A DNA stretch of 64,000 bases, from the NCBI GenBank assembly GCA_023664945.1, contig JAMPER010000001.1:210829-274828 (forward strand). Reading direction: 5' to 3'. The translations under genes were made by a program, and so were the position numbers. Within the stretch, counting starts at the first letter, position 1; each line of letters begins with the position of its first letter. Below, one piece after another: positions 10,513-57,073 of this stretch. The DNA is from Alistipes senegalensis (GTDB taxonomy: Bacteria > Pseudomonadota > Gammaproteobacteria > Burkholderiales > Burkholderiaceae_D). A model generated the notes under the pieces. It had not been told where the DNA came from. It did no database searches and saw only the letters and a list, made by a program, of their open reading frames with translations.

Positions 10513-10535
10513 GGATAATCCGGAAGGCCAGAAGG

Positions 10536-22369: not shown

Positions 22370-22379
22370 TACTTTGCTG

Positions 22380-23669: not shown

Positions 23670-23699
23670 GATATTTCCTGAAAAATACAAAAATAGGCT

Positions 23700-24110
23700 G
23701 AATCATCGATTTTAGCAGATGAATCTAAAGAAAGTTTCAGAAAAAGCAGCTTGGTTTTTAATTTATTCTATTAGAAAGAGTTATATAAAGGTAGTATTGA
23801 TGAACTTTGGCAAAAAGTGTGGGAAAGAAGAATATTTCCCATACAATCATTATCTTGCGGTAAGAATAACATCATGGAAACCGTGTGCGGAAAACAGGAT
23901 AAAAACTGTTTTTGCCGAAAAGTATCCTGTTATACCCGGTAAATAATCTAGTTATTCACAGGTTTATCCACATTCTTATCAGAATTTTGTTTTAAAAGCA
24001 TTGTTTTATCTGTAACAGGCTACCTGATAAAATAAGCTCCCTTTACTGAATCATTCAGCCTGTCAGGAATAAACAGGTTGTTTCACGTGAAACACAGGGT
24101 TATTTCAGTC
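23700..24110. other. Probable chromosomal replication origin (oriC)
   Basis: AT-rich intergenic region before mnmG; TTATTCACA 23952-23960, perfect TTATCCACA 23964-23972, weaker TGTGGGAAA 23818; parS; third-codon bias switches here. Confidence 0.75.
24079..24094. promoter_or_regulatory. parS centromere site
   Basis: Perfect 16-bp palindrome TGTTTCACGTGAAACA matching the common parS consensus; parAB about 2.7 kb downstream. Confidence 0.93.
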
Positions 24111-24111
24111 T

Positions 24112-26031
24112 ATGTATTTTCCGGAACAGTTTGATGTTATTGTGGTTGGGGGCGGTCATGCCGGGGTGGAAGCTGCCCTGGTTGCTGCACGGATGGGGAA
24201 ACAAACGCTCCTTGTTACGCAAAATTTTGATACCCTGGGTCAATTATCATGCAATCCTTCTATTGGAGGGATAGGAAAAGGACATTTGGTTAAGGAAGTG
24301 GATGCCATGGGAGGGGCGATGGCGCTTTCTTCTGATGAGGCAGGCATCCAGTTCAGGATATTGAATTCATCCAAGGGGCCGGCCGTCAGGGCAACCCGTG
24401 CGCAGATTGACCGCAATTTATATAGGCAGTCTGTCCGCTTTCGGCTGGAAAACCAAAAAAATCTGTTTTTGTTTCAGCAGCAGGTAGATGATTTATTGAT
24501 AAAAAATTACCAGGTAGAAGGTGTTGTGACAGAGGGGAAAATCTGTTTTAAAGGAAAAAGTGTTGTACTTTCTGCCGGTACATTTCTTGATGGAAAAATT
24601 TATGTCGGCCTGCATTCCCATCCCGGCGGCCGGGCAGGGGATGCGCCTGCTGTTGCCCTGGCCCACCGTTTGCGGGATATTGCTCTGCCGCAGGGGAGAT
24701 TAAAAACCGGTACACCTCCCCGGATTGACGGCCGTACTGTCAATTTTGGCGTCATGGAAAGGCAGGATGGCGATACTGATCCGGTTCCGGTATTTTCCTT
24801 TTCAGGAAATCCGGAAATGCATCCTTCGCAGCTGCCTTGCTGGATTACGCATACCAATTTGCAAACGCATGAGATTATTCGCGGCGGGTTGGACAGGAGC
24901 CCGCTTTTTACAGGCATGATAGAAGGCGTTGGCCCGCGTTACTGTCCTTCTATAGAAGACAAGATCCATCGTTTTTCTGATAAGTCTTCCCACCAGATTT
25001 TTCTGGAGCCGGAAGGATTGCGTACCCATGAATATTATCCGAATGGCATTTCAACCAGCCTGCCCTTCGATACGCAGATAGCATTGGTGCGTTCAATGAA
25101 GGGGATGGAAAACGCGCATATTTTACGGCCGGGGTATGCCATTGAATATGATTATTTTGATCCCCGCAGCCTGAAAACTTCCCTTGAAACCAGGCAAATT
25201 GCCGGATTGTTTTTTGCCGGCCAGATAAATGGAACTACCGGGTATGAGGAAGCGGCGGCGCAGGGCCTGATGGCAGGAATCAATGCTTGCCGCTATGTTG
25301 ACGGAGCCGAGGCATGGGTGCCCAAACGAAGTGAAGCTTATATGGGCGTGATGCTGGATGACCTGGTTACCAGGGGGGTAAAAGAACCATACCGTATGTT
25401 TACCAGCCGGGCAGAATACCGTTTGAGCTTAAGGGAGGATAATGCAGATATCCGCCTGACGGAAACCGCTTACAGGCTGGGGTGTATTAGCCAGGTACAG
25501 TGGGAACGTTTCGAAAAGAAAAGGGAACAAATTGCCCGCGAGATGGAAAGGATGAAATCTACCTGGGTGCATCCTGCCATGCTGGATGAATCGGAAGCTG
25601 TCCGGGTGCTTGGAAAAAAACCGGAAAAAGAATATTGCTTGGCAGATTTGCTGAAACGGCCGGGGGTGGATTACGATTTGCTGATGACGCTTTCATCAAA
25701 AGATGGACAAAAATGGACGTCTGAAGAAAATCTTGAAAAAGCGGTTACAGAACAGGTGGAAATCCAGACGAAATATGCCGGCTATATTGAAAGGCAGGAA
25801 AGGGATGTGCGGCGGCAGCAATATTATGAAAATTTACGCTTGCCGGATGATTTGCCTTATGCGGATATCCCGGCACTATCCATAGAAGTGCGGCAGCGCC
25901 TGGAAATGCAGCGTCCGGAAACGCTGGGGCAGGCTTCCCGCATTTCGGGTGTTACGCCCGCAGCTGTTTCTCTTTTGCTGGTTTACCTGAAGAAACGGGG
26001 ACTGGTTCATTTTTCCGGAGACAAGGCGTGA
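24112..26031 (+). CDS. mnmG: tRNA uridine-5-carboxymethylaminomethyl modification enzyme
   Basis: VGGGHAG; SCNPSIGG; [11 protein letters not shown]; [13 protein letters not shown]. Confidence 0.99.
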
Positions 26032-26711
26032 GGAAAAAAGAAACAGCTGCCATATTTCTTACTGCTTCAATAGATAAAGCGGCCGGTTTGCTTGTTGAAG
26101 GTGTGCAAAAATTGCCTGTCAATCCGGAAAAAGCACAAATTGAAAAGCTGCTTTCCTACATGCGGCTCCTGCTGCGGTGGAACCGGGTATATAACCTCAC
26201 AGCGGTAAGGGAGGCAGAGTCGGCAGTAGTACTCCATTTTCTGGATTCCCTGGCAGCGGCAGCAGCAGTAAAGGATTGCCGGCGTTTGCTGGATGTGGGT
26301 TCCGGTGCCGGTTTTCCTGGTATGGTCATGGCTGTTTTGTATCCCGATATGGCTGTTTCGCTCATTGATGCCGTTGGAAAAAAAACGGCATTCCTTTCCC
26401 AGGTTCGTGCAGAATTGCAGCTGGAAAATGTCACTGTCCATACCGGCCGGGTGGAAGCCTTTTTCCCCGCAGAAAAATTTGATGCTGTTATTTCCCGCGC
26501 TTTTTCCGATTTGGCGAAGTTTACGGCCCTGTCCAACCACCTGCTGGCAGATGGCGGCCTTTTTTATGCCATGAAAGGCGCTGTGCCGGAAACAGAAATA
26601 GAGGCGCTTCCTGCTGGATTGAAAGTAAAGGCTGTTATACCATTGGATGTGCCCTTTCTGGATGCACAGCGCCACTTGCTTGTGATTGAACCACTGCCGG
26701 TTCAGATATAG
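26028..26711 (+). CDS. rsmG: 16S rRNA m7G527 methyltransferase
   Basis: WNRVYNLTA; HFLDSL; [11 protein letters not shown]; SRAF; GTG start. Confidence 0.96.
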
Positions 26712-26770
26712 AGGCCGGTTGTTGCGTTTTCCAAAGCATATTTTTCTCTTTAACCCAACGATAGAAACAC

Positions 26771-27541
26771 ATGACCCGGATTTTCTGCATAGCAAACCAA
26801 AAAGGCGGCGTGGGAAAGACTACGACAACCGTCAACCTTGCCGCCGGGCTTTCCCGGCTGGGACAGCGGGTTCTTTTGGTTGATCTTGATCCCCAGGGCA
26901 ATGCAACCATGGGTTCCGGTATCCAGAAAGCGGAACTGGACCATTCTGTGTATCAGGTACTCCTGGGATTGGCCGATGTGGAAAAAGCCCGCCAGGTTTC
27001 GGAAAGCGGCGGGTTTGACGTGCTGCCTGCCAACCGGGATCTGGCAGGTGCCGAAGTGGAACTGGTTGACCTGGATAACCGGGAACACCGTCTAAAGGCA
27101 GCTTTGCAGGCAGTTGCCAGCCAGTATGATTTTATATTGATTGACTGCCCGCCCGCTCTTTCCATGCTGACCATCAACGCCCTGTGCGCGGCAAATGGGG
27201 TAATTATTCCCATGCAGTGTGAATATTATGCGCTGGAAGGACTGTCTGACCTGATAAATACTATCAAACATGTCCATGCCGGTTTGAACCGGGACTTGCA
27301 GATTATTGGCTTGCTCAGGGTGATGTTTGACAAACGGGCGACCCTCTCCCAGCATGTTTCAGCACAGCTGGAACGCCACTTTGGCGATAAGGTTTTCAAG
27401 ACAGTTATCCCCCGGAATATCCGGCTGGCGGAAGCGCCCTCCTACGGTATGCCGGGCATCACGTTTGATTTGGCTTCAAGGGGATCGCAGGCCTATATGG
27501 ATTTTGGCCGGGAAATGATGAGCTGGCTGGACAGGCAATGA
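26771..27541 (+). CDS. parA: Chromosome partitioning ATPase
   Basis: NQKGGVGKTTT; DLDPQGNAT; IDCPP; RLAEAPSYG. Confidence 0.98.
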   Translation: MTRIFCIANQKGGVGKTTTTVNLAAGLSRLGQRVLLVDLDPQGNATMGSGIQKAELDHSVYQVLLGLADVEKARQVSESGGFDVLPANRDLAGAEVELVDLDNREHRLKAALQAVASQYDFILIDCPPALSMLTINALCAANGVIIPMQCEYYALEGLSDLINTIKHVHAGLNRDLQIIGLLRVMFDKRATLSQHVSAQLERHFGDKVFKTVIPRNIRLAEAPSYGMPGITFDLASRGSQAYMDFGREMMSWLDRQ

Positions 27542-27581
27542 TCACTGGCCGGAAAAAGCCGGTTTTTCAGGATAAGAGAAA

Positions 27582-28448
27582 ATGACAAAAAGAAAAAAAG
27601 GATTGGGCCGTGGGCTGGAAGCGCTTTTAGGCACAGCGCCGGATTTTTCGGCAGATAGGGGAGAGCTTTTCAGTGTGCCGCTTTCCAGTCTGGAAGCAGG
27701 AAAGTATCAGCCTCGTTCGCGCATAGATGAAGGCGCATTGAATGAGCTGGCCCAGTCCATTCGCGAACAGGGAGTAATGCAGCCTATTCTGGTAAGGAAG
27801 GCAGCGGCGGGTCGTTATGAAATTATTGCAGGGGAAAGGCGCTACCGGGCTGCCCAGGTGGCCGGTCTGGAGCAGATTCCTGCCCTTCTTAAGGAAGTGG
27901 ACGACCAGACAGCAGCCGCAATGGCGCTGATTGAAAATATGCAACGGGAAGACTTGAATCCGCTGGAAGAGGCGCAGGGCATCCACCGTTTGATTACCGA
28001 TTTTGCCTTTACGCACGAGCAGGCTGCCCAGGCTGTCGGCCGCTCGCGCAGCGCGGTTTCCAACCTGCTCAGGCTGCTGAACCTTTCCCGCCCTGTCCAA
28101 ACCATGCTGATGGCCGGCGATATTGATATGGGCCACGCCCGGGCACTGTTGGCCGCTGATGGCGCAACCCAGATTACCCTGGCAACCCAGGTAGTGGCAA
28201 AAAGGCTTTCCGTCCGGGAAACAGAAAGGCTGGTAACACGGGAACTGGCAGAAAAATCAGCGCTGGAAAGAAAAAAGGAAAAGAAAAAACCGGCTGATAT
28301 TGTGCGGCTGGAAGAAGAATTATCCGATTTGCTGGCTACCCGTGTGACCTTTCAGGTCAACACCAAAGGGCAGGGGCAAATGCGGATTGATTTTGCCGAC
28401 CTGGATGTGCTGGACGGCGTCCTTAAGCGGCTGCGCCCTTCCAACTGA
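27582..28448 (+). CDS. parB: Chromosome partitioning protein (CTPase)
   Basis: GLGRGL; YQPR; AGERR; ENMQREDL; HTH GRSRSAVSNLLRLL. Confidence 0.98.
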   Translation: MTKRKKGLGRGLEALLGTAPDFSADRGELFSVPLSSLEAGKYQPRSRIDEGALNELAQSIREQGVMQPILVRKAAAGRYEIIAGERRYRAAQVAGLEQIPALLKEVDDQTAAAMALIENMQREDLNPLEEAQGIHRLITDFAFTHEQAAQAVGRSRSAVSNLLRLLNLSRPVQTMLMAGDIDMGHARALLAADGATQITLATQVVAKRLSVRETERLVTRELAEKSALERKKEKKKPADIVRLEEELSDLLATRVTFQVNTKGQGQMRIDFADLDVLDGVLKRLRPSN

Positions 28449-28458
28449 TGCCGATTTT

Positions 28459-29034
28459 TCAGATCATGAGCGGATCAACTGTCATGGCCCGGATATCCGG
28501 CAGGTTTCTCCAGTAGCCTTCAATATCCATCCCGAACCCGATCACAAAGCGGTTGGGCAGTAAAAGGCCGACATGGTCCGCTGTAACCGGTTTTTTGGCG
28601 TTAATCTGCTTATCGGCAAAAACGGCCAGAATCACCTTTGCCGCGCCCATTTCCAGCAGGCGGCGCTGGACATGCGACAGGGTTTCCCCCTCGTCCAGAA
28701 TATCATCCAGCACCACAACAATGCGGTTCATGACATTTTGGCGGGGAATGACTTTCCAGATGACTTCGCTGCCGTGTTCTTCGCCGCCGTAGCGGGAAAC
28801 ATGGATAAAATCAAATTCCATTGGAAAATCCAGATGCGGCAGCAGCTGGCCCGAAAAAACAACCGCGCCCCCCATGACGCCAAGAAGAAGCGGAAACGAT
28901 TCCGGTTCTGTTTGCCTGAAACGCGCGTTCAGTTCGGCGGCTACTTTGAGAACTGCTGCCTGTACCTGTTCGGGCGTGCAAATTTGTTCGGTCTTTTCAA
29001 GCAATTTTGTTGCGCGCTCGTGATGGGAATCCAT
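28459..29034 (-). CDS. hpt: Hypoxanthine-guanine phosphoribosyltransferase
   Basis: VLDDILDEGETL PRPP loop; FVIGFGMD..GYWRNLP. Confidence 0.92.
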   Translation of the reverse strand: MDSHHERATKLLEKTEQICTPEQVQAAVLKVAAELNARFRQTEPESFPLLLGVMGGAVVFSGQLLPHLDFPMEFDFIHVSRYGGEEHGSEVIWKVIPRQNVMNRIVVVLDDILDEGETLSHVQRRLLEMGAAKVILAVFADKQINAKKPVTADHVGLLLPNRFVIGFGMDIEGYWRNLPDIRAMTVDPLMI

Positions 29035-29207
29035 TTTGCCCTCGCGAAAGAGAAAACGGCAGCAGGCGGGAGGAGGTTTTCCGATGCAGCCGGTTATATC
29101 GGTTATAGAATAATGCAATATCCGGGGATATTGACAAGTTTACACTAAGCGGCGCGTTTGCCATCAACATCCGGCCGGATATTGCAAAGCGGGCAGGGAA
29201 AGAAAAA

Positions 29208-31046
29208 ATGACAAAAGAAGAGAAAATAAAAATGGATAAAAAAGAGGAAATAACCGGCCGTATCGGCTGCTTGCGCCAGGTAATGGAAAAAGCAGACATT
29301 GCCGCCTGCCTAGTACCTTCTTCCGACCCGCATCTTTCCGAATATTTGCCGCCCCGCTGGCAGGGCCGGCAGTGGCTTTCCGGTTTTGACGGCTCCGCCG
29401 GTATCCTGCTCGTAACACAATATTTTGCAGGATTGTGGACAGACAGCCGATACTGGGTTCAGGCTGAAAAACAGCTTGAAGGGACCGGCATTGAGCTGAT
29501 GAAAATACAACCGGGCAACCTGATGCCTTATGCAGGCTGGCTTGCCGAAAATCTTTCACCGGGGCAGATTGTGGCAGCTGACGGACAGCTTTTCAGCCTG
29601 GCGGCAGGCCGCTGCCTGAAAGAAAAGCTGGCGGCGGCTTCCCTTCTCTGGCAGGAAGAGGGCGATTTGCTGGACCGCATCTGGGAAAACCGTCCTGCTG
29701 TGCCTGCCGTGCCGGTCTATGCCCATGCGGCGGAAATGACAGGCTTTTCCCGCCGGGAAAAGCTGCAAATGATACGGGAAAAGCTGGCGGATGCCGGCGC
29801 CAACGCCCATTTCATGCTGGCGCTGGATGATATTGCCTGGACCCTCAATTTAAGGGGCGGCGATATCGCATTCAATCCGCTTTTCATCAGCTGTTTGCTG
29901 GTGGAAGCATCGCAGGCAACGCTTTTTGTGAGCCCGGAAAAAATCCCGGCAGATATACGGCAGTCACTGGAAGCTGACGGTGTGCGCCTGAAGCCTTATG
30001 AAGCGGCCAAGGCGGAGCTTGAGGCACTGGGAGAAGAAACAGTTTTGCTTATTGATCCCCGGCGCTTTACCTGGGGCATGTTTGCCGCTGTCGGGAAAAA
30101 GGCGAGGATAGTGGAAGCCGCCAGCCCGGCCATGCTGCTGAAATCCCGGAAAACAGAAACAGAAATCAGCCATGTGCGCCGAACCATGGAAAGGGACGGC
30201 GCGGCCCTGTGCGAATTTTTTGCCTGGCTGGAAGCTGCCCTTGAAAGAGGGGAAAAAGTCAGCGAGCTGGATGTGGCCGATAGATTGAAAGCCTGCCGGG
30301 AAAAAATTCCCGGCTATGTCAGCCTGAGCTTTGATACCATCGCCGGTTTCAATGAAAATGGTGCGCTGCCGCACTATCAGGCCACACCGGAAGATTTTGC
30401 TGTCATTGATGGAAGCGGCCTGCTGCTGATTGATTCCGGCGGGCAATACCCCGGCGGCACAACCGACATTACCCGCGTGGTTCCCATTGGCGAAGTACTG
30501 CCGGAACAGAAGCGGGATTATACGCTGGTGCTAAAGGGCCTGATTGCCCTTTCGGGAGCCGTCTTTCCGCGCGGCATCCGGGCCGCCATGCTGGATGCCA
30601 TAGCCCGGGTGCCGCTTTGGAAAGAAGGGCTGGATTATGGGCACGGCACCGGCCACGGGGTAGGTTATTTTTTGAATGTCCACGAAGGGCCGCAATCCAT
30701 TTCCTGTTATGGCGCGGCAGACCCGCACACCGCCATGGAAAAAGGCATGATCACTTCCGTTGAACCAGGGCTTTACCGCACCGGGAAATGGGGTATCCGC
30801 CTGGAAAACCTGGTCGTGAACCAGGAAGCACAGCAGACCGAATTTGGCGAATACCTGCGTTTTGAAACGCTTACCCTTTGCCCGTTTGAGGCGAAGTGCA
30901 TGGATTTGGCGCTGCTGACCCCGGCTGAAATAATCTGGATAAACCGCTACCATGCTGAAGTCCGGCAGCGGCTTTTGCCGCTTTTGTCAGAAGGAGCCAG
31001 AAACTGGATGATTGCCCGGACAGAAGCGTTGCCTTGTCAGGTTTAA
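29208..31046 (+). CDS. Aminopeptidase P family (M24B) peptidase
   Basis: DSGGQY..GTTDITR; HGTGHGVG..LNVHEGP; EPGLY..GIRLEN. Confidence 0.95.
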   Translation: MTKEEKIKMDKKEEITGRIGCLRQVMEKADIAACLVPSSDPHLSEYLPPRWQGRQWLSGFDGSAGILLVTQYFAGLWTDSRYWVQAEKQLEGTGIELMKIQPGNLMPYAGWLAENLSPGQIVAADGQLFSLAAGRCLKEKLAAASLLWQEEGDLLDRIWENRPAVPAVPVYAHAAEMTGFSRREKLQMIREKLADAGANAHFMLALDDIAWTLNLRGGDIAFNPLFISCLLVEASQATLFVSPEKIPADIRQSLEADGVRLKPYEAAKAELEALGEETVLLIDPRRFTWGMFAAVGKKARIVEAASPAMLLKSRKTETEISHVRRTMERDGAALCEFFAWLEAALERGEKVSELDVADRLKACREKIPGYVSLSFDTIAGFNENGALPHYQATPEDFAVIDGSGLLLIDSGGQYPGGTTDITRVVPIGEVLPEQKRDYTLVLKGLIALSGAVFPRGIRAAMLDAIARVPLWKEGLDYGHGTGHGVGYFLNVHEGPQSISCYGAADPHTAMEKGMITSVEPGLYRTGKWGIRLENLVVNQEAQQTEFGEYLRFETLTLCPFEAKCMDLALLTPAEIIWINRYHAEVRQRLLPLLSEGARNWMIARTEALPCQV

Positions 31047-31124
31047 TCTGTCCATTAAGATAAAAGCAAAGGAAAATTCGGGCTGTTGCTGTTTTTCCTT
31101 CAGTACAAATGCGCTTGGCAGAAA

Positions 31125-31376
31125 CTAGGCGGCCGGGCTGATATCGGGCGCATCAGCCAGATGGGAAATGGCATAGCCCTTTTCCTGTATCTGTTTTGCC
31201 GGGCGGACAATGGAAAATTCGTCCAGTGATTCGGTTTCAATGTTCAGGCGCATGCCACGGGCAGCCAGTTCCCAGTCAATATTGGCGGCTTCTGCCGGAA
31301 TCAGCCTGCCTTCCGGTACAATCAGCCAGGAAAACTGGCTGTCTTCTTCTTTCCTGCGAAAAATATCCACTCTCAT
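31125..31376 (-). CDS. Small conserved hypothetical protein (DUF6139-like by recall)
   Basis: MRVDIFRR...VPEG..IP.EA.NIDW...IQEKGYAI resembles a Burkholderiales small-protein family. Confidence 0.65.
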   Translation of the reverse strand: MRVDIFRRKEEDSQFSWLIVPEGRLIPAEAANIDWELAARGMRLNIETESLDEFSIVRPAKQIQEKGYAISHLADAPDISPAA

Positions 31377-31884
31377 GTCAGGTCTCCAGGCCGGTTTCAC
31401 CGGGTTTTTCCTCCTTCAGGATACTATGGAATGCGTGTGCGGGGAACATTTCGCCATGTCGTTGTTTTGCAAAATCCAGAAAAGAAAAAGCAGGCGGCAA
31501 AATGGGGAATATTGATGATACGGGTGATATTCACGGAAGGCTTCTGCCCGTATGATTTTTGGTAGAGGCGTTGTTTGTTTGATCGTCCGTATCAATCAGC
31601 ACCCCCCTTGCAGGCGCATGACAGCCCGTGCCCTGTTTAATCTGGCGGACATCGTTTTTGTGCAATAGCCGGTAATGTCTCCAGGCATTACCACTATCTC
31701 TTGTCACCTTTCCCGAGCAGTCCCGCTTGCGCGGCATCAACAGATACCTGAGGATCAACCCTGTCTGGAAACAGAGAGTTACCTTTAAAAACAGCAGGCA
31801 GACATAAACAAGCTACCTAACAAGCGCCATGCAGAGGGGGAAAAGAGACTTTCTGTTGCAGAAAAACAACAGGGGATTGATAAC

Positions 31885-31922
31885 TTTTAACATCCGTTAA
31901 TGCGTATTAACGGATGTTAAAA
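31885..31922. repeat. Palindromic element E1 (17-bp arms, 4-nt centre GCGT)
   Basis: TTTTAACATCCGTTAAT-GCGT-ATTAACGGATGTTAAAA, read directly. Confidence 0.97.
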
Positions 31923-32086
31923 CATCCGGTTAAAGAACACATAAACCACGCCAAGAAGCGTATCAGAGCTCACTTTCGGTATCAAGACAAAACAAGGCGT
32001 TTTTCCTCCCGAAAAAATAAAAGAAGGGTTAAAAAATGGGAAGAAAAGGTAATAAGTATATTAAAAACAATGGATTGCAAAAATTT

Positions 32087-32118
32087 TAATGTCCGTTAAT
32101 ACGCATTAACGGACATTA
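32087..32118. repeat. Palindromic element E2 (14-bp arms, centre ACGC), inverted copy of E1 core
   Basis: TAATGTCCGTTAAT-ACGC-ATTAACGGACATTA; core 32092-32113 is the exact reverse complement of 31893-31914. Confidence 0.97.
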
Positions 32119-32205
32119 CCTTTGGCCTGTACGGCAGAGGGGCTTTTAAGCATTGCCAACTCTTTTGAAGAGTTGTTTTTCTAACCACTGGAATAGGTAA
32201 ACAAC

Positions 32206-33456
32206 ATGAAAAAAACCTTAATCGCATTAGCCGTACTCGGTGCAGCAGCCGGTGTGGCCCATGCCCAATCCAACGTCACCATCTATGGTGTTGTTGATAC
32301 CGGTTACATCAAGGAAACCGGCCGCGATGTTCGCATGGGCGAAAACATCAACAACCGCATTGGTTTCCGCGGCGCGGAAGACCTGGGCGGCGGCCTGAAA
32401 GCCACCTTTGAACTGGAAAAACGGTTCGACCTGTTCGATGGCACCAATGGCAACACCAATACAGCGCAGTACAAAGGCCCGGCTAAAGCTTCTGGCAAAG
32501 ACTGGGATGGCGCAGCCAATATTGGCCTGGCAGGCGACTGGGGCCGTATCCGTTTCGGCCGTGTGAACGAACTTTCAACCGAAACCATTCGTAAGTTCGA
32601 TCCGTTCTATCAATACGGCGTGGGTTCCATGATTTTGAGTACCCAACGTTCCGCTCGTATCGACAACACTGCCCGTTATGATTCTCCGAAGTGGGCTGGT
32701 TTCTCCTTTGGCTTGAGCTATTCCTTGGGTGAAAACACCAAAGCAGGAAGCGCTTTCCGTAAAGCCAAGGATAATGCTAAAAACGAATACATTCCTGGAG
32801 TTATTGAGAAAGATGATGGTAGTTACGAGAAATTTACCTCGTATGATAACGACGGTTATGGCATCAACCTGAGCTACGACAACGGCCCGTTCCTTGCCAC
32901 TGCCAACTGGAGCCGGGTAGCGGATTCCAACGATTCTTCTGTCTGGAACATCGGTGTGGGTTACAAATTCGGTCCGGCCCGCGTGACCTTGGCTTACGAA
33001 AAAACCAAGGATAAAGGTTATAAAAATGGGTCGGCAGGTATGACGGCTTCGATACCTTATGCCAATAAGTATACCGATATATCCGGCTACTACGATGATG
33101 TAGATGTAGCTGTACAGAGCGAACAAGAAGTCTGGCTGCTTGGTCTGGAATGGGATGTTGGCCCGGGCCAGTTTGACGCATCTGTCCAATATGGCCAGCT
33201 GGATGATGTTAAAGCGGGCGGCAAAAAAATCAAATACACTAGGGTAAGAGGTGGCAAGGAAGTCACCAAAACCTTTGATGACCGTGACATCCTGAAGTAT
33301 GCGATTGGTTATACCTATAACCTTTCCAAACGCACTTCGGCATACGCCCAGGTTTCCTATACCGATTATGACGACAAGGATGCAGGCCGTTTCTACACCG
33401 GCATGGATCGTGACAGCGTCACGGCCTTCCAGATCGGTATGACCCACAAGTTCTGA
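32206..33456 (+). CDS. Trimeric outer-membrane porin (Gram-negative porin family)
   Basis: MKKTLIALAVLG..AHA signal peptide; SNVTIYG; GFRGAEDLGGGLKA.F.LE; Y.LSKRT..Y; C-terminal HKF. Confidence 0.96.
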   Translation: MKKTLIALAVLGAAAGVAHAQSNVTIYGVVDTGYIKETGRDVRMGENINNRIGFRGAEDLGGGLKATFELEKRFDLFDGTNGNTNTAQYKGPAKASGKDWDGAANIGLAGDWGRIRFGRVNELSTETIRKFDPFYQYGVGSMILSTQRSARIDNTARYDSPKWAGFSFGLSYSLGENTKAGSAFRKAKDNAKNEYIPGVIEKDDGSYEKFTSYDNDGYGINLSYDNGPFLATANWSRVADSNDSSVWNIGVGYKFGPARVTLAYEKTKDKGYKNGSAGMTASIPYANKYTDISGYYDDVDVAVQSEQEVWLLGLEWDVGPGQFDASVQYGQLDDVKAGGKKIKYTRVRGGKEVTKTFDDRDILKYAIGYTYNLSKRTSAYAQVSYTDYDDKDAGRFYTGMDRDSVTAFQIGMTHKF

Positions 33457-33514
33457 TGCGGGTTTGACAACAGGATGGTAGAGGTTTTTGTCTTCCCTTA
33501 CTCTTTCTGTTGGG

Positions 33515-33545
33515 CAAGGGCTTCCTTCGGGAAGCCCTTGTTTTT
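33515..33545 (+). terminator. Intrinsic terminator after porin
   Basis: 11-bp stem CAAGGGCTTCC/GGAAGCCCTTG, TTCG tetraloop, T5 tail. Confidence 0.92.
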
Positions 33546-33708
33546 GGGAAAGACAAGCATTGTATCCCTTGGCATTGGATGAGAAGGTGATTTTTTGTCT
33601 TTGCAACTTAGGAAGGAGCATGATGACATTTACCGCATTCACCCGTCTGGCCTTGAAATATGTATAAATGCCACCTATTAATGAATGTTATCCTAGGAGA
33701 AATTTTTT

Positions 33709-34020
33709 ATGAGTTTATATGAACATGCTGTTTTGATTTTGCATGAAGACATCGATAGCGAAGGGATTAATGCCCATTTATTCAAATGTAGAGAAAGGGA
33801 TGGAAAACCGCATTCGATTAAGAAGACATCTTTATGTGGCGCTGTTGAGCGATGTGGCAGTGTTTCCCATTATCAAGAGGGTGATATAAGTCCCTTTGTT
33901 TTTGGGAAAATTGCATCAAAAGAGTTTCGACTGTTGGTAGCGCGTGCTCATGACAAGTCGGCAAATATCTGTGGAAGGTGTGTCGCACATCTCTATGCAG
34001 ATGAGGAGGAGCAAGAATAA
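33709..34020 (+). CDS. Small Cys/His-rich hypothetical protein
   Basis: 103 aa, AGGAG RBS, AT-rich; LCG..ERC and ICGRCVAHLY motifs. Confidence 0.75.
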   Translation: MSLYEHAVLILHEDIDSEGINAHLFKCRERDGKPHSIKKTSLCGAVERCGSVSHYQEGDISPFVFGKIASKEFRLLVARAHDKSANICGRCVAHLYADEEEQE

Positions 34021-34165
34021 TTGCAATAGAAAAAGCCTAGATTAATCGGACTGCTATAGTCCGATGTTATTGAAGCAAGCTGATCTTACAGCTTGCCACA
34101 TTTTGACAGGAAAATAGTACCACACATTCGCCGAATAAACGCACCAGCCCCCACCCCGGGGGCAT

Positions 34166-34463
34166 TCACACCACAAGAAACCTGGACCGCTCCCTGTCAA
34201 GCCCTCGATCATTATATTTGTCAGTCATAGCCTTGGCTCCTGTGACCAAGCAGAATTTGCGTATTGATGCCTTGTTCACGGTAAAGCCGCTCCGAAAGAG
34301 ATCGACACTCATGCAGCGTGGGTCTGTAACCCGTATCAGAACGGTCAAGCACTCGTACAAATAAATTGCAGAATCTGGCTGTCATATAATTTGCGCAAAA
34401 CGGTTGACCATTCTCCTTTCGCAGGGAAGTTTCTCCCGGTGTGGGACTTGATAACTTGGCCAA
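34166..34463 (-). pseudogene. Lambdoid tyrosine integrase C-terminal fragment, frameshifted
   Basis: PTLHECRSLSERLYREQGINTQILLGHRSQ, then a frameshift to AMTDKYNDRG; matches the lambdoid HxxR...LGH...Y.DDRG motif; no N-terminal domains. Confidence 0.85.
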
Positions 34464-34632
34464 GCATCCTGCTTACAAGAAAATGACAAAGAAATTTTCG
34501 GCGTTTTTTCATTGCGCGCCCGCCATGTTTTTTGGCGATAAGTCCTCTGCCTGACTGAACCACCCTTTACGGGCGGTTTTTTCTTCGCCATCAGGAAACA
34601 GGTTGTAAAGACTGGTGCCAGCGGCTGTTTAT

Positions 34633-35676
34633 TCAGGTACTTGGCGAAACCCGCCTTATCATCTTTTTCACGTCATCCGAGGCGTTTATTTCAAGAAGCT
34701 GAACGTCAGGGTGCGCATTTCTGAATACCCTGAATACTTCGTCAGCAAAGGCCTGCCCGATTTCATCTATCTTGTCAAAATCCAGCACAACGGTTTTGAA
34801 TCCCTCAAATCTGGCGACCAGTCTTTTGGCCTGTGAACGGGAGATCAGGTTTTCTCCGCCAATGCTGGCCAATCTGACGGGAACAATGGTTTTACTGAAG
34901 GTAAATTCCCCTGAAACGGTATATTCATCAAAGACTTCTTTTGTCTTTCTATTGCTGTTGACAGCAATGGACATGAAAACGGCTGTACCCAGGTTATAGG
35001 GAGAGTCAAAGAGGATATCTTTTTCCAGACGGGAATCGTGCTTGAACGTCAAGTCATTGGCATCAATTTCAAATGAATCGAACATCCTGGAGGTGAAGAA
35101 AATGCCTTCTCCCGTGTGCCTGGCAGCATCTGTTGTCAACTTTCCTTTGGAGAGTTCAAGCAATGACAATCTTGGGTCTGGCAGGTTCAGGGCTTCCTGA
35201 ATCTTTTTGAAGATGCCGATTCCATCATCTGCTATGAAAATAGAAAGTCTGCCATGCTTTACTGCCATCATGATATGCACATGGTTGCCGTCTGAATGGT
35301 CATGCGCATTATTGGCAATTTCGGTAAATCCATAGTGGGCAATATTGCGTATATTCTCCGGCAAATCAAAAAAAGGCAGGAAATCCCTTTCCCAGAGAAT
35401 ATCTTCTTCTACCTCCGTTCTTTGATAGGTGCGGATGATCATCCTGTTTGGGCCGAGGGCATAAACAGGGCGGCGGCTGTTGCCCGATGTTGCCAGCCAG
35501 CCGTCGCTGACAAATTGCCTGACCAGCCTGGAAGCAGAAGGCCGGGAAAGGTTGAATTCCCTGGAAAGATCAGAAATCAGGCCGGTTTGCCTTTCATTTG
35601 ACAAATGGTCGGCAATCCATGTCAGTTTCATCATTTCCTGCGCACGAAAATCCCGGGTTGTTTTTTTGTTTGACAT
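34633..35676 (-). CDS. wHTH + GHKL (HATPase_c) + STAS-like (DUF4325-like) protein
   Basis: N-terminal LSREFNLSRPSASRLV HTH; EIANNAHDHS, IADDGIGI, HTGEGIF boxes; C-terminal LISRSQAKR..VVLDF..I..IGQAFADEVF. Confidence 0.85.
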   Translation of the reverse strand: MSNKKTTRDFRAQEMMKLTWIADHLSNERQTGLISDLSREFNLSRPSASRLVRQFVSDGWLATSGNSRRPVYALGPNRMIIRTYQRTEVEEDILWERDFLPFFDLPENIRNIAHYGFTEIANNAHDHSDGNHVHIMMAVKHGRLSIFIADDGIGIFKKIQEALNLPDPRLSLLELSKGKLTTDAARHTGEGIFFTSRMFDSFEIDANDLTFKHDSRLEKDILFDSPYNLGTAVFMSIAVNSNRKTKEVFDEYTVSGEFTFSKTIVPVRLASIGGENLISRSQAKRLVARFEGFKTVVLDFDKIDEIGQAFADEVFRVFRNAHPDVQLLEINASDDVKKMIRRVSPST

Positions 35677-35776
35677 GTTTTTTCCTGATGACAGAGGGTT
35701 TCTGCCGGATTGGGACAGCGGTGTGGCGGCCTGTTTTACAGGCTTACTGCCATAAATTGGTGTGGTAAATGCGCTA

Positions 35777-35830
35777 AATATGTAAATAATATTACATGAA
35801 TATGTAAATATTCTACATGTAAAATGTCAA
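35777..35830 (-). promoter_or_regulatory. Candidate promoter and tandem operators of the wHTH-GHKL gene
   Basis: TTGACA on minus strand (35825-35830); AATATGTAAATA twice with a 22-bp period; ATGTAA-N6-TTACAT palindrome. Confidence 0.55.
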
Positions 35831-35930
35831 TATACCTGCAAGGAGATGAAAAGCAGCTGATTCCCATACAACTTGTATGGGCGGGTTACCCAGGTTTTCC
35901 TGGCGGATATGGCGCACGCTCATTATGCAC

Positions 35931-35952
35931 AAAAGCCGCCCAATGGCGGCTT
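35931..35952 (-). terminator. Probable gyrB terminator
   Basis: 8-bp stem AAGCCGCC/GGCGGCTT ending in a T4 run on the minus strand. Confidence 0.6.
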
Positions 35953-36035
35953 CACTGGCGGCATGTCAGGCAGCTGCGCCTTTTCCGGCAGTTTGAGCCG
36001 GTTTTGCCGGAAAGGGTGCAGCCAACAGACAGGTA

Positions 36036-38537
<2,502 letters not shown>

Positions 38538-38617
38538 TCAAAATGCGGGCCCTTTTCGGGGCCAGGTAAACCGTGGCGGATACGTCCAAAAACGTATCCG
38601 GGCCGCCAGCGCCGGCA

Positions 38618-39724
38618 TTAAATGCGCATCGGCATGACGACATATTTAAAATCCGCGTTATCCGGCACCGTGATTAATGCCGAAGAGTTGGCATCGCCCA
38701 GTTCAACGACGATATTTTCGCTTTTCTGGTTGCCAAGCACATCCAGCAGGTAGGTAACGTTAAAGCCGATATCAATGGCGTCGCCGGTGTAATCAATTTC
38801 CATTTCTTCAATGGCTTCTTCCTGGTCGGTATTGGTCGAGCTGATTTTGAGGCTGCCGGCTTCAACAATACAGCGGATGCCCTTGAATTTGTCGCTGGTC
38901 ATGATGGCAGCCCGCTGGAGGGCGCGCTGGAATTGTTCCCGCGAAATGGTAAAGCGGTTTTTATAGCTTTTGGGGATAACGCGGGTATAGTCCGGGAATT
39001 TGCCTTCCACCAGCTTGGAGATCAGTTCAATGCCGCTGAAAGCAAATTTGATCTGGGCAGGGCTGATGTATATCCGGACCGGGTCTTCCGAATCCGTAAG
39101 GAGGCGTTGCAGCTCAAGGATGGTCTTGCGGGGGATAATGACTTCCCTGTGGCCGTATTCTTCCTGGGTTTCAACCTGGCTGTAGGCCAGCCGGTGACCG
39201 TCTGTTGCCACCGCCAGGAGCGTTTTGCCTTCTGCAATCAGCAGCATGCCGTTTAAGTAGTAACGGATATCCTGCTGCGCCATGGCAAAGTGAACCATGC
39301 CCAAAAGTGCCTTGAGCGCCTTTTGGGGCAGCTCGACGCCGTTTTCATATTCCGGCGATTCCGCAACAACCGGGAAATCTGCCGCATCCAGGGTTTGCAG
39401 GGAAAAACGGGATTTGCCGGACTGGACAGAAAGCTTTTTATCAACGAGCGTCAGCGAAACATCGGCTGAGTCTGGCAGGGCACGCAAAATATCAAGCAAT
39501 TTTCGTGCGGCTACTGTCGTAGCCGTATTTTCTTCTCCTGTCCCGATATCGGCGTTTGTGGTGATCTGGATTTCTGTGTCGGTTGAGAGGAAGGAGAGCG
39601 CCTGCCCTTCCTTCCTGATCAGGATATTGGCCAGGATGGGCAGGGTGTGCCTGCGTTCCACAATGCCGCCGACCGTTTGCAGGGGGCGCAGGAGGTTGTC
39701 TCTGGCGGTTTTTACAAGTTGCAT
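38618..39724 (-). CDS. dnaN: DNA polymerase III beta clamp
   Basis: LPILAN; ATDGHRL; GKFPDY; IGFN..YLLDVL; VVMPMR. Confidence 0.99.
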   Translation of the reverse strand: MQLVKTARDNLLRPLQTVGGIVERRHTLPILANILIRKEGQALSFLSTDTEIQITTNADIGTGEENTATTVAARKLLDILRALPDSADVSLTLVDKKLSVQSGKSRFSLQTLDAADFPVVAESPEYENGVELPQKALKALLGMVHFAMAQQDIRYYLNGMLLIAEGKTLLAVATDGHRLAYSQVETQEEYGHREVIIPRKTILELQRLLTDSEDPVRIYISPAQIKFAFSGIELISKLVEGKFPDYTRVIPKSYKNRFTISREQFQRALQRAAIMTSDKFKGIRCIVEAGSLKISSTNTDQEEAIEEMEIDYTGDAIDIGFNVTYLLDVLGNQKSENIVVELGDANSSALITVPDNADFKYVVMPMRI

Positions 39725-39769
39725 GTTCCGTCCTTAGGGTATGGGGTTAAATGGAGGGGCAGCCGGCTG

Positions 39770-41116
39770 TCAGCCTTTCAGGGTTTCTTCCAGTATGCGC
39801 AGTTCGCGGGCGCATTCCGGATTCGCGGTTTTTTCCTGGGTAATTTTTCTGACAGCGTGCAGCACAGTGGTATGATCCCGCCCACCGAAAAGTTCGCCTA
39901 TTTCCGGCAGGCTTTTCTGGGTCAGTTCCTTTGTCAGGTACATGGCAATCTGGCGGGGGCGGGCGATATTGGCCGGGCGGCGCTTTGAATACATGTCCGC
40001 TACCTTGATACGGTAAAAGTCTGCCACGGTTTTCTGGATGTTTTCAACAGAAATCAGGCGTTTTTCTGCCGCCAGCTTGTCTCTCAGGGCTTCCTTGACC
40101 ACATTGATAGTGACATCCCGGGTATTCTGGAAGCGGGAATAGGCCAGTATGTTCCTTAGGGCGCCTTCCAGTTCGCGGACATTGGAACGGAAGTGTGTCG
40201 CCACAAAAAATGCCGCGTCATCGGCCAGGCAGATCCCTTCCAGGTTGGCCTTTTTCAGGAGAATTGCCACGCGCATTTCCAGTTCGGGCGGTTCAATGGC
40301 AACTGTCAGGCCGGAATTGAAGCGGGAAACCAGCCGGGCTTCCAGGCCGTCAATTTCCTTGGGATAGGTGTCGCTCGTGATGATGATCTGCTTTCTTGCC
40401 GCTGTTAAGGCTTCAAAGGCATAAAAGAATTCTTCCTGGGTGCGGGTTTTTTTCCCGGCCGCAAAAAACTGGATATCGTCAATCAGCAGCATATCCAGGG
40501 AATGGTAATAGCGTTTGAAATCATCCCAGCTGTTGCGCTGGTAGGCTGTTGTCACATTGCGGATATATTGCTCGGCATGGATATAGCGTATCCGGGCGCC
40601 GGGCCTGTCCTGCATGACCTGGTTGCCGATGGCATGGATTAGGTGTGTTTTTCCCAGGCCTACGCCGCCATAGATAAACAGGGGGTTGTAGGAAACGCCC
40701 GGATTGCTGGCAACCTGGATGGCAGCGGCCCGGGCAAGCTGGTTGGCCTTGCCGGTAACAAAACGCTCGAATGTCATGTCCGGGTCAATGCCGTTATCGT
40801 GCTGGGGCGTTTCGGGAACGGCGGCAGGGCGGGTCAGCCGGGCGGCGACAGGGGAAATGGCCTGCTTTTCCGGGGAGGCGGCTGCAATGGAAAATTTGAT
40901 GGCAACCGGCATATCCCAGTATTGGGAAGCCAGGTCGGCAAAACGGGCGGAAAACTCGTTTTTGGCCATATCCATCTTGAAGCGGTTTGGCGCGGCGATA
41001 CGCAATACGCCATTTTCATAGCCCAGCGGCGTCAACGGCTTTATCCACGCCTGATATTGTTGCGGCGGCAATTCCAGTTCCATCTGGTTTAGGCAGCTTT
41101 GCCAGAAATTTCTCAT
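39770..41116 (-). CDS. dnaA: Replication initiator DnaA
   Basis: [11 protein letters not shown]; IDDIQF; [10 protein letters not shown]; [12 protein letters not shown]. Confidence 0.99.
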
Positions 41117-41219
41117 CGGGTGAATCAGGCAGTCAAAATGCCAGCGCCTTGCGCGGCATGGGAAAAACAGGAAAGGATATATTGAAAAACAGGCGCTATT
41201 TTACCCTGAATCAGGCGAG

Positions 41220-41228
41220 TTATCCACA
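41220..41228 (+). promoter_or_regulatory. DnaA box in the dnaA-rpmH intergenic region
   Basis: Perfect TTATCCACA. Confidence 0.8.
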
Positions 41229-41276
41229 GGTTGGGCAGGATTTTGGCCTGCCGTTTGGGCAAAGCGGCATAGTATA

Positions 41277-41306
41277 TTGACAGGTAAGGGTAAATTACGG
41301 TTTAAT
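41277..41306 (+). promoter_or_regulatory. Candidate sigma70 promoter for rpmH
   Basis: TTGACA-18bp-TTTAAT. Confidence 0.55.
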
Positions 41307-41407
41307 CATTGGTTCTTTGCACGCAAAGCGATGCTGCGCAGGCTTTCGCCGTCAGGGCGGGGGAAGCAGCAACGACCTGTTTATTATTGCCGATTAGCGA
41401 GACCACC

Positions 41408-41542
41408 ATGAAACGTACCTATCAACCTTCAGTCATACGCCGCAAGCGCACCCACGGTTTCCGTGCCCGTATGGCAACGAGAAACGGCCGGGCAGTTATC
41501 AATGCGCGCCGGGCCAAGGGCCGCAAACGTCTGGCTGCCTGA
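41408..41542 (+). CDS. rpmH: 50S ribosomal protein L34
   Basis: MKRTYQPS...RTHGFRARM. Confidence 0.99.
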
Positions 41543-41566
41543 GTCAGGCGATGTCCGGCTTATCGT

Positions 41567-56979: not shown

Positions 56980-57073
56980 CAGAATAAGCCGCGCCTAGTC
57001 AGACGTGACGGAAACCGGGAACCCTGCCCGGCTGGCGTGGCTTTCTAGTTTAGGGGAAACGAGAGGGACGTTT

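What the first reader, a model, noticed from the sequence alone, without database searches (positions are those of the whole stretch)
31885..32118. Candidate invertible promoter switch upstream of the porin: twin palindromic sites in perfect inverted orientation
Seen: E1 core TCCGTTAATGCGTATTAACGGA (31893-31914) and E2 core TCCGTTAATACGCATTAACGGA (32092-32113) are exact 22-bp reverse complements, 177 bp apart. Each has long dyad arms (17 and 14 bp) around a short asymmetric centre (TGCGTA vs TACGCA). The enclosed DNA carries TTGATA-17bp-TGnTACGCT on the minus strand (31985 to 31957), pointing away from the porin, and I found no equally good forward promoter. Established: dyad arms around an asymmetric 6-8 bp spacer is the architecture of tyrosine-recombinase sites, and inverted spacers give inversion; gut bacteria use such switches for surface antigens, often with trans-acting recombinases. 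Inference: ON/OFF phase variation of a porin or phage receptor, here assembled OFF. Alternatives: looping operators, or selected hairpins, since the arms covary (CA/TG in E1 vs TG/CA in E2) and a third AACATCCG at 31921 allows a rival hairpin. No intact recombinase is in the window.
Basis: partly seen in the sequence, partly recalled or inferred. Interest (0 to 1): 0.8.

Follow-up and report, generated by a model that had tools for sequence, protein, structure and literature searches.

The report
Invertible promoter switch before Oxalobacter porin
The twin palindromes upstream of this Oxalobacter porin gene bound a roughly 195-bp DNA segment that sits in opposite orientations in different strains. 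It is one of a genus-wide set of such switches in front of surface-protein genes, probably flipped by a Xer-like tyrosine recombinase, and not reported in the papers I could search.

Summary
E1 (31885-31922) and E2 (32087-32118) are near-perfect palindromes. Their 22-bp cores are exact reverse complements 177 bp apart, and the motif occurs nowhere else in the 64 kb.

The interpretation as an invertible switch is largely supported:
- **Second copy.** The same genome carries a 100 % identical module about 305 kb away, in front of a paralogous porin ("locus B").
- **Flipped state.** At the orthologous locus B of another strain, the segment is inverted. Both junctions are the hybrid sites expected from crossover inside the 22-bp core.
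- **Related site pairs.** Six other Oxalobacter loci have pairs of the same motif (TCCGTTAAT-N4-ATTAACGGA) 178-206 bp apart. The 4-bp centre differs between loci but is always reverse-complementary between partners.
- **Target genes.** Those pairs precede autotransporters, a sulfatase-family membrane protein, a giant surface protein, or a Xer-like tyrosine recombinase gene.
- **Recombinase.** An intact, more distant member of that recombinase clade lies about 250 kb from the window on the same contig.

Not shown: flipping at the window's own locus, mixed orientations within one culture, the promoter, and recombinase activity. It is a new member of a known kind (invertons).

The parts
31885..31922 (.). 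E1, the porin-distal recombination site. Two 17-bp dyad arms flank the centre GCGT (31902-31905); the 22-bp core is 31893-31914.
   Evidence: The site is identical in the second module of the same genome.
32087..32118 (.). E2, the porin-proximal recombination site. Two 14-bp dyad arms flank the centre ACGC (32101-32104); the 22-bp core 32092-32113 is the reverse complement of the E1 core.
   Evidence: In strain X4 the outer arm of an E2-type site is joined through the core to the E1 inner arm, which is the flipped junction.
31906..32100 (.). Invertible segment of about 195 bp between the two crossover centres.
   Evidence: It is found reverse-complemented relative to both flanks at the orthologous second locus of another strain (L022 and the X4 contigs).
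31957..31985 (-). Promoter-like element TTGATA, 17 nt, TGnTACGCT. In the window it points away from the porin, towards E1 and the DUF6139 gene.
   Evidence: Read directly from the sequence. It falls below the threshold of the consensus scan. Comparable outward-facing elements occur in the interiors of L023, L126, L132 and L011. TTGAT and TAnnnT are kept in the variant strains.
31921..31928 (+). Extra half-site AACATCCG next to E1, inside the segment. It may be an accessory binding site or a remnant.
   Evidence: Half-site duplications also lie beside sites in L015 and L127.
31853..32146 (.). Whole repeated module: about 40 bp of left flank, E1, the interior, E2, and about 28 bp of right flank.
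   Evidence: It is 100 % identical, apart from one extra G after 31871, to the module at locus B of the same contig, while the sequence beyond it differs. Short-read contigs break at its edges.
31853..31872 (-). Small conserved hairpin in the left flank (CTGTTG, 8 nt, CAACAG).
   Evidence: Folds at -8.9 kcal/mol, z-score -4.8. It lies in the shared module. Its function is unknown.
32157..32182 (+). Terminator-like hairpin (8-bp stem) followed by TTTTT, 24 nt upstream of the porin start codon.
   Evidence: -7.8 kcal/mol. The stem is kept and the loop varies in other strains. It is absent from the right flank of locus B in this genome.
32206..33456 (+). Porin gene (416 aa, Porin_4/Porin_1), the presumed target of the switch.
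   Evidence: It is strain-specific: the closest homologues are 74-78 % identical.
31125..31376 (-). DUF6139 gene, divergent from the porin. The promoter-like element points towards it in the window state.
   Evidence: Locus B has a divergent lipoprotein gene in the same position.

Best explanation
The region is a site-specific DNA inversion switch (an inverton).

**Sites.** E1 and E2 are recombination sites. Each has two inverted recombinase-binding arms around a short crossover region (the variable 4 bp plus its conserved T/A neighbours). Because the asymmetric centres are in inverted orientation, recombination flips the roughly 195-bp segment between them.

**Recombinase.** The enzyme is most likely a Xer-like tyrosine recombinase encoded elsewhere. 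In this genome the candidate is a 334-aa protein about 250 kb away.

**Output.** The segment probably carries one outward-facing promoter. In the window state it points at the divergent DUF6139 gene (porin OFF). In the flipped state it would read through E2 into the porin.

**Wider system.** The same system serves a second, identical switch in front of a paralogous porin in this genome. In other Oxalobacter species it serves switches in front of autotransporters, a sulfatase-family membrane enzyme, a giant surface protein, and the recombinase gene itself.

**Shown versus inferred.** Shown: the site architecture, the two orientations between strains with breakpoints in the core, the covariation of centres between partners, and the adjacency of sites and recombinase genes in related species. 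Inferred: which recombinase acts here, the position of the promoter and the ON/OFF assignment, and that switching is frequent and reversible within a population.
For: 1. The exact 22-bp inverted cores lie within 38- and 32-bp palindromes, and the motif is unique in the window.

2. Locus B of the same contig (L139) carries a 100 % identical module between a lipoprotein gene and a paralogous porin, in the window state. The orthologous locus B of MAG NALB (L022) shares the lipoprotein/RelA flank but reads left flank, TTTTAACA, core, CATTAAAATTTTTATAACCCATTG. This matches, apart from a few strain differences, the flipped junction predicted from L139 (CATTAAAATTTTTGCAATCCATTG).

3. Contigs of isolate run X4 (described by the tool as k = 31, longer than the 22-bp exact repeat) match L022 with no mismatch across that junction. 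One 481-nt contig runs core, inverted interior, core, right flank, porin 5' end, and the joint is reported as 'opposite strands' with 22 shared letters. Runs X1 and X2, close to the window strain, are in the window state at both loci.

4. Six other Oxalobacter loci have a site pair 178-206 bp apart. The centres are reverse complements within each pair and differ between loci: GGGC/GCCC, AGGC/GCCT, AAAC/GTTT, AAGC/GCTT, ACTC/GAGT, ACGC/GCGT. The exact inverted repeats are 10-17 bp.

5. The genes next to the pairs are surface-related: two autotransporters, a Sulfatase-family membrane protein, an ESPR autotransporter, and a protein of more than 2500 aa.

6. One clade of Xer-like tyrosine recombinases lies 90-330 bp from a site or a site pair in four lineages: L011, L126, L127/128 and L129-131 (single site, with a partner half-site in L129-131), and L132-135. 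The window's genome encodes an intact member with R, K, HxxR, H and Y present.

7. Centre-to-centre spacings vary without helical phasing (178, 179, 181, 185, 199, 206 bp).

8. Each interior has an outward-facing promoter-like element near one end.
Against: - No flipped copy of the window's own locus A was found. Every assembly or contig that reaches it is in the window state: the window, X1-X3, L124, L014 and X27.
- Only assembled contigs were available, so mixed orientations within one culture could not be tested.
- X4 and MAG NALB are identical over the 244 nt compared, so they probably represent one lineage. The flipped state is therefore documented in effectively one lineage.
- The promoter is a weak match (-10 TACGCT). 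The consensus scan finds no promoter, and there are no RNA data.
- The O. formigenes recombinase is only 41-46 % identical to the site-adjacent ones and has no site within 10 kb.
- In a divergent lineage (X5, X12, X13, X27) the distal centre reads GTGT, while no matching change is listed in E2. Partner identity is therefore not absolute, or that switch is locked.
- One Oxalobacter site (L044, symmetric centre GCGC) has no partner.
Confidence: 0.75

Rival explanations
1. E1 and E2 are repeated palindromic elements (REP/REPIN- or MITE-like) with no programmed function. The inverted state seen in one lineage would then be a rare evolutionary accident of homologous recombination between 22-35-bp inverted repeats.
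For: The module is a repeat with sharp edges, present at two or more loci per genome and absent from the orthologous locus B in some lineages. Further E-like sites with other flanks exist in the same and other strains. The flipped state is seen in only one lineage.
Against: Copy number is low: two copies in 64 kb and 2-3 perfect copies per genome in the scan. The interiors differ between loci, while the centres covary within each pair. The pairs sit consistently in front of surface-protein genes and next to a tyrosine recombinase, not a transposase or RAYT. A 22-bp exact repeat is a poor substrate for RecA.
Confidence: 0.12
2. E1 and E2 are twin operators of a dimeric helix-turn-helix regulator that loops the DNA to repress or activate the porin. 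The orphan site in L044 would belong to the same regulon.
For: The 9-bp half-sites are strongly conserved across the genus around a non-conserved 4-bp centre. A single orphan palindrome lies near frc. Two sites lie 199 bp apart.
Against: This does not explain why partner centres are always reverse complements while differing between loci, why the segment is inverted with core breakpoints in another strain, or why the spacing is not phased. Distal partners are degenerate in the arms but keep the centre.
Confidence: 0.06
3. The palindromes act as RNA or DNA hairpins, for example 5'-UTR stabilisers, terminators or attenuators. The switch might then work through terminator formation, as in the C. 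difficile cwpV switch, rather than by carrying the promoter.
For: The hairpins are very stable (-19.1 and -17.0 kcal/mol, z-scores -7 and -8). The arms covary to keep pairing. On the minus strand E2 is followed by a T-rich run and is scored as terminator-like. No strong promoter was found inside the segment.
Against: In the flipped state both sites become imperfect palindromes. Distal partners in other species are poor hairpins. There is no Rfam match. This reading overlaps with the main explanation, since it changes only how the inversion alters expression.
Confidence: 0.07

Closest known systems
fimS switch of E. coli (FimB/FimE tyrosine invertases)
   Same: A short promoter-bearing segment bounded by inverted repeats lies in front of a surface-structure gene. 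Inversion is by tyrosine recombinases, with half-sites flanking each repeat.
   Different: The fim repeats are 9 bp and are not long palindromes. FimB and FimE are about 200 aa, lack the N-terminal core-binding domain and are encoded next to the switch. Here the recombinase is about 320-335 aa and Xer-like. It scores far below the NCBIfam cut-offs for the FimB/E-type models (38 and 34 bits against cut-offs of 221 and 222). In O. formigenes it is encoded 250 kb away.
Bacteroides invertons (Mpi and Tsr recombinases) and the PhaseFinder/DeepInverton catalogues
   Same: Many invertible promoters per genome share repeat motifs, sit in front of surface components of a gut bacterium, and are served by trans-acting recombinases.
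   Different: The phylum and the motif differ. No paper in the searchable library mentions Oxalobacter together with invertons. DeepInverton reports enrichment in Betaproteobacteria only in general terms.
RecV of Clostridioides difficile (one tyrosine recombinase, several switches, including the terminator-type cwpV switch)
   Same: One orphan tyrosine recombinase is proposed to act on several dispersed switches. Hairpin or terminator effects are possible.
   Different: RecV sites are imperfect repeats of differing sequence. Here a single strongly conserved palindromic motif is used throughout the genus.
Xer-like invertases of Mycoplasma (Xer1, HvsR)
   Same: Xer-family recombinases have been recruited for phase variation of surface proteins.
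   Different: Those systems shuffle promoter-less gene copies at multi-gene loci. The similarity is recalled from general knowledge and was not tested here.
Heterospecific lox/FRT spacer variants
   Same: The arms are conserved while the crossover region is free to vary, provided the two partners match. This is the pattern seen across the Oxalobacter pairs.
   Different: Those are engineered variants. Here the pattern is natural and only inferred to insulate the loci from one another. The two porin switches of this genome share the same centre.

Membership tests
Inverton (invertible promoter switch driven by a site-specific recombinase) | A short DNA segment is bounded by inverted repeats. | tested here: met
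   There are 22-bp exact inverted cores, 35 nt at 89 % when extended, with 177 bp between them.
Inverton (invertible promoter switch driven by a site-specific recombinase) | Both orientations exist, with breakpoints inside the repeats. | tested here: met
   This is met between strains at locus B, whose module is identical to the window's: L139, X1 and X2 against L022 and X4, with hybrid arms at both junctions. It was not seen at the window's own locus A.
Inverton (invertible promoter switch driven by a site-specific recombinase) | Both orientations coexist within one clonal population, showing reversible switching. | not testable with these tools
   Only Logan contigs were available, with no raw reads or RNA runs. 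The contigs of X1-X3 show a single state.
Inverton (invertible promoter switch driven by a site-specific recombinase) | A promoter lies inside the segment. | tested here: inconclusive
   TTGATA-17-TGnTACGCT lies on the minus strand, and analogous elements occur in other loci. The consensus scan finds none, and there are no TSS data.
Inverton (invertible promoter switch driven by a site-specific recombinase) | A cognate site-specific recombinase is present. | tested here: inconclusive
   An intact Xer-like tyrosine recombinase is encoded on the same contig. Clade members lie next to site pairs in four other lineages. Activity on these sites was not tested.
Tyrosine-recombinase core site (lox/FRT/dif-type) | Two inverted binding arms flank a 6-8-bp crossover region that is identical in the two partners. 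| tested here: met
   The arms TCCGTTAA(T) and (A)TTAACGGA flank N4 plus T/A. The centres are reverse complements in 7 of 7 pairs. One divergent lineage has a 1-nt centre mismatch.
dif/XerCD chromosome-dimer resolution site | There is one site per chromosome in the terminus region, and the recombinases are the XerC and XerD equivalogs. | tested here: not met
   The genome has several sites, and this one lies next to dnaA, gyrB and parAB, which is the origin region. The recombinase scores about 116 bits against XerC and XerD cut-offs of 330-335.
REP/REPIN elements with a RAYT transposase | Tens to hundreds of copies per genome, with an associated Y1 (RAYT) transposase. | tested here: not met
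   There are two copies in 64 kb and 2-3 perfect copies in each Oxalobacter genome in the collection scan. The neighbouring enzyme belongs to the Phage_integrase family.
Hin/Gin-type serine invertase switch | A resolvase-family recombinase acts on 26-bp hix-type sites, with a Fis-bound enhancer. | not tested
   No serine recombinase was looked for outside the window. None was seen among the ORFs scanned or beside the related loci.

The most novel reading that the evidence does not exclude
A single Xer-like recombinase clade runs a genus-wide set of invertons built on one palindromic motif.

- The 4-bp crossover centre would act as a locus-specific 'address' that must match between partners. 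It would keep most switches from recombining with each other.
- The two porin switches of this genome share one address and are kept 100 % identical by inter-locus exchange.
- Each switch would toggle one promoter between two divergent genes: porin against the left neighbour, or adhesin against the recombinase gene itself. The second arrangement would give built-in feedback on the switching rate.
Probability: 0.3. Interest if true: 0.7.

Novelty: new member of a known kind. Interest (0 to 1): 0.6.

Why it matters
Oxalobacter formigenes is the gut oxalate degrader studied as a probiotic against kidney stones and hyperoxaluria. Its colonisation is notoriously variable.

A recombinase-driven ON/OFF system for porins, autotransporters and an envelope-modifying enzyme would be a concrete, testable source of variation between cells. 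It could affect phage sensitivity, immune recognition, possibly solute uptake, and colonisation. It would also explain why short-read assemblies break at these loci.

The system is compact and could serve as a natural model for how spacer identity partitions several recombination sites that share one enzyme. The kind of element is well known, however, so the finding extends a catalogue and does not change a concept.

Tried and rejected
- **Metagenome scan.** The scan for the motif returned 77 loci. None matched the window by BLAST, and none was identified as an Oxalobacter switch; most are unrelated hairpins or terminators.
- **Raw reads and RNA runs.** None exist in the index. Only contigs could be laid, so orientation ratios could not be measured.
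- **Recombinase loci and run contigs.** Laying them on the L011 recombinase gave nothing at 80 % identity.
- **Exact look-ups in other assemblies.** The window's porin and the DUF6139 protein returned only this strain, plus short contigs that stop at the module edges. The second assembly of this strain (1.295 Mb contig) is collapsed by the tool and could not be read. The look-up of P0035 failed.
- **E2-centre covariation in divergent strains.** No change is listed, but the tool hides some differences, so the result is weak.
- **Rfam.** There was no family match.
- **PADLOC on the neighbouring islet.** Nothing convincing was found.
- **Hybrid promoter across E1.** I considered a promoter formed by the left-flank TTGATA (31877-31882) and rejected it, because the sequence downstream of it is the invariant core in both states.
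- **Lipoprotein homologue look-up.** It showed lineages without any switch at locus B rather than further orientation states.

Full report
**Observation**

- E1 is a 38-bp palindrome. Its arms 31885-31901 and 31906-31922 are 17 nt long and 100 % complementary, around the centre GCGT.
- E2 is a 32-bp palindrome with arms 32087-32100 and 32105-32118 (14 nt) around the centre ACGC.
- The 22-mers 31893-31914 and 32092-32113 are exact reverse complements. No other copy with up to 3 mismatches exists in the window, and none is expected by chance.
- Because 18 of the 22 bases are self-complementary, the inverted orientation rests on the outer two bases of the 4-bp centre. The flanking arm bases (AACA/TGTT in E1, AATG/CATT in E2) serve as separate markers of which arm belongs to which site.

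**Context**

The window comes from an Oxalobacter formigenes-type genome. It lies on contig JAMPGG010000001.1 of GCA_023664065.1, a MAG.

The switch sits in the replication-origin region. The gene order is gidA-gidB-parA-parB, an M24 peptidase, DUF6139 (minus strand), the switch, the porin, a low-GC islet, then gyrB-dnaN-dnaA. ORF 32206-33456 is a Porin_4/Porin_1 porin. It is strain-specific, since the nearest homologues are only 74-78 % identical.

**A second, identical switch in the same genome**

Contigs from runs of the same strain (X1, X2) have loose ends showing further copies of the E1 and E2 flanks. I reached one of them through the lipoprotein gene that flanks a related contig, L022.

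- This "locus B" lies about 305 kb away on the same contig. Its order is RelA, lipoprotein gene (divergent), module, porin paralogue.
- From window position 31853 to about 32146 the two modules are 100 % identical, apart from one extra G. The sequences beyond those edges are unrelated on the left and only partly alike on the right.
- Orthologous modules of other strains differ by 5-9 %. The identity within this genome therefore points to concerted evolution or a recent copy.

**Two orientations**

MAG NALB (L022) has the orthologous locus B, with the same lipoprotein/RelA flank. After the left flank it reads TTTTAACA, core, CATTAAAATTTTTATAACCCATTG. The flipped junction predicted from this genome's locus B is CATTAAAATTTTTGCAATCCATTG.

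Isolate run X4 matches L022 with no mismatch across that junction. It also has one 481-nt contig that runs core, inverted interior, core, right flank, porin 5' end. The tool reports the joint as 'opposite strands' with 22 shared letters.

Logan contigs are described by the tool as built with k = 31, which is longer than the 22-bp exact repeat. On that basis the hybrid sites (AACA-core-CATT and AATG-core-TGTT) should be real molecules rather than graph artefacts. They are the products expected from crossover inside the core.

X1 and X2 are in the window state at both loci. Two limits apply. X4 and NALB are identical over the 244 nt compared, so they are probably one lineage. And every sequence that reaches the window's own locus A is in the window state.

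**A genus-wide family of site pairs**

The collection scan found perfect TCCGTTAAT-N4-ATTAACGGA sites in other Oxalobacter species. Each has a more degenerate partner 178-206 bp upstream. The partner's centre is the reverse complement:

| Locus | Partner centres |
|---|---|
| L011 | GGGC / GCCC |
| L015 | AGGC / GCCT |
| L023 | AAAC / GTTT |
| L037 | AAGC / GCTT |

Two further pairs were found beside recombinase genes: ACTC/GAGT in L126 and ACGC/GCGT in L132. The centres differ between loci but match within each pair, and the exact inverted repeats are 10-17 bp. A 14-bp match within 400 bp has a chance probability of about 1e-6 per locus.

This is the signature of recombination partners that need identical crossover regions. 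An operator would not be expected to produce it. The centre-to-centre distances (178, 179, 181, 185, 199, 206 bp) are not helically phased, which also argues against a looping operator pair.

**Genes next to the pairs**

They are two autotransporters (L015, L023), a Sulfatase-family membrane protein (L037), an ESPR autotransporter (L126), a protein of more than 2500 aa (L132), the porins here, and a tyrosine recombinase (L011).

**Recombinase**

The L011 gene belongs to the Phage_integrase family (8.7e-24) and has an in-frame stop in that MAG. It belongs to a clade of 312-335-aa Xer-like proteins.

- Every fetched member has a site or a site pair 90-330 bp upstream. Several contigs end there.
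- NCBIfam places the clade far below the XerC, XerD and XerA cut-offs.
- The nearest solved structures are XerC-like 4a8e, XerA 5hxy and XerD 1a0p.
- The window's genome encodes an intact member (334 aa; L138 ~9788-10792, after ftsYEX-rpoH). The catalytic residues R, K, HxxR, H and Y are present.
- That member is only 41-46 % identical to the others, and no site lies within 10 kb of it. It is the best candidate for the enzyme, by inference only.

**How expression would change**

The only promoter-like element in the segment is TTGATA, 17 nt, TGnTACGCT on the minus strand (31985-31957). It faces E1 and the divergent DUF6139 gene. At locus B it faces the lipoprotein gene. The scan tool does not call it.

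Other interiors have comparable outward-facing elements near one end:

| Locus | Element | Faces |
|---|---|---|
| L023 | TTGATA-17-TAAAGT | away from the autotransporter |
| L126 | TTGACA-18-AATTAT | towards the autotransporter |
| L132 | TTGAAT-17-TATACT | towards the giant protein |
| L011 | TGtTAGAAT | towards the recombinase |

Flipping would bring the window's element to face the porin, reading through E2. At locus A it would also read through a small conserved terminator-like hairpin (32157-32175 plus TTTTT). The 'OFF as assembled' reading is therefore plausible but unproven.

**Caveats**

- In a divergent lineage (X5, X12, X13, X27) the distal site has outer-arm changes and the centre GTGT. 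No matching change is listed in E2. That switch may be locked, or the spacer rule may be leaky.
- One site (L044, centre GCGC) has no partner.
- In some lineages locus B has no module at all, and the porin there has a plain upstream region. The module therefore shows presence/absence polymorphism.

**Comparison with known systems**

In its workings this is a fimS- or Bacteroides-type inverton with a RecV-like one-enzyme, many-switch layout and lox-like spacer logic. It is not dif/XerCD, since there are several sites, this one is at the origin, and the recombinase is not an equivalog. It is not REP-like, since copy number is low and the associated enzyme is a tyrosine recombinase.

Full-text searches found no paper linking Oxalobacter to invertons, phase variation or such recombinases. 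Large catalogues report that invertons are common and enriched in Betaproteobacteria.

**Verdict**

It is a new member of a known kind. Its interest lies mainly in Oxalobacter colonisation biology and in the clear covariation of the crossover centres.

Noticed in passing
window 31853-32146 and L139 (rc) ~8945-9240: The two porin switches of this genome, about 305 kb apart and in direct orientation, are 100 % identical over about 294 bp with sharp edges. Orthologues in other strains differ by 5-9 %. This suggests gene conversion or site-mediated exchange between the loci. Porin B is interrupted by a 100-N gap in the scaffold.
   Followed up: partly
window 33500-36000; L136 1521-3195: A low-GC islet lies between the porin and gyrB. 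It holds an HTH/HATPase_c_2/DUF4325 (STAS-like) protein (34633-35676, minus strand). In another strain the same position holds a GmrSD (type IV restriction) pair. It looks like a variable, defence-type hotspot beside the origin genes.
   Followed up: partly
window 22000-42000: The window spans the replication-origin region. It contains gidA/gidB/parA/parB and gyrB-dnaN-dnaA, and the cumulative GC skew reaches its minimum near 23-24 kb.
   Followed up: no
window 57000-58800: A low-GC (39-46 %) islet holds a 181-aa AlpA + HTH_39 protein (58022-58567) and an unannotated 300-aa ORF (57005-57907). It may be the remnant of an integrated element. No integrase was seen among the ORFs scanned.
   Followed up: partly
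window 6330-7074; 60473-61276: A nucleotidyltransferase with its substrate-binding partner (an MNT/HEPN-like pair) lies at 6330-7074. An ORF with a BrnT toxin domain (34.3 bits, just under the 34.5-bit gathering cut-off) lies at 60473-61276. Both are probably toxin-antitoxin modules.
   Followed up: no
L011 622-1614: The site-adjacent recombinase of Oxalobacter sp. H07616 has an in-frame stop at 925-927. It is either a pseudogene or a MAG error.
   Followed up: no
L044 6845-6866: An orphan perfect palindrome TCCGTTAATGCGCATTAACGGA, with a symmetric centre and 7-bp extended arms, lies about 270 bp upstream of a 555-aa AAA ATPase gene and near a gene whose N-terminus looks like formyl-CoA transferase (frc; identified by eye, not scanned). 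It has no partner, and its role is unknown.
   Followed up: partly
L015 4201-4225; L127 ~95-126; window 31921-31928: Tandem duplications of half-sites lie beside several full sites, for example TAGGCATTAA repeated twice in L015. They may be accessory binding sites or scars of aberrant recombination.
   Followed up: no
P0035 / P0287 records: A 1.295-Mb contig that carries this strain's porin, recombinase and lipoprotein genes is labelled 'Alistipes senegalensis' MAG in the source database. This is probably a binning or labelling error.
   Followed up: no
L140-L145 vs L143: In a related clade the lipoprotein-porin intergenic region has no switch module in five contigs. A sixth contig, with a differing flank, ends in '…AAGCCTGGCT', the sequence that precedes the shared module at locus B of this genome. 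The module therefore appears to be present or absent depending on lineage.
   Followed up: partly
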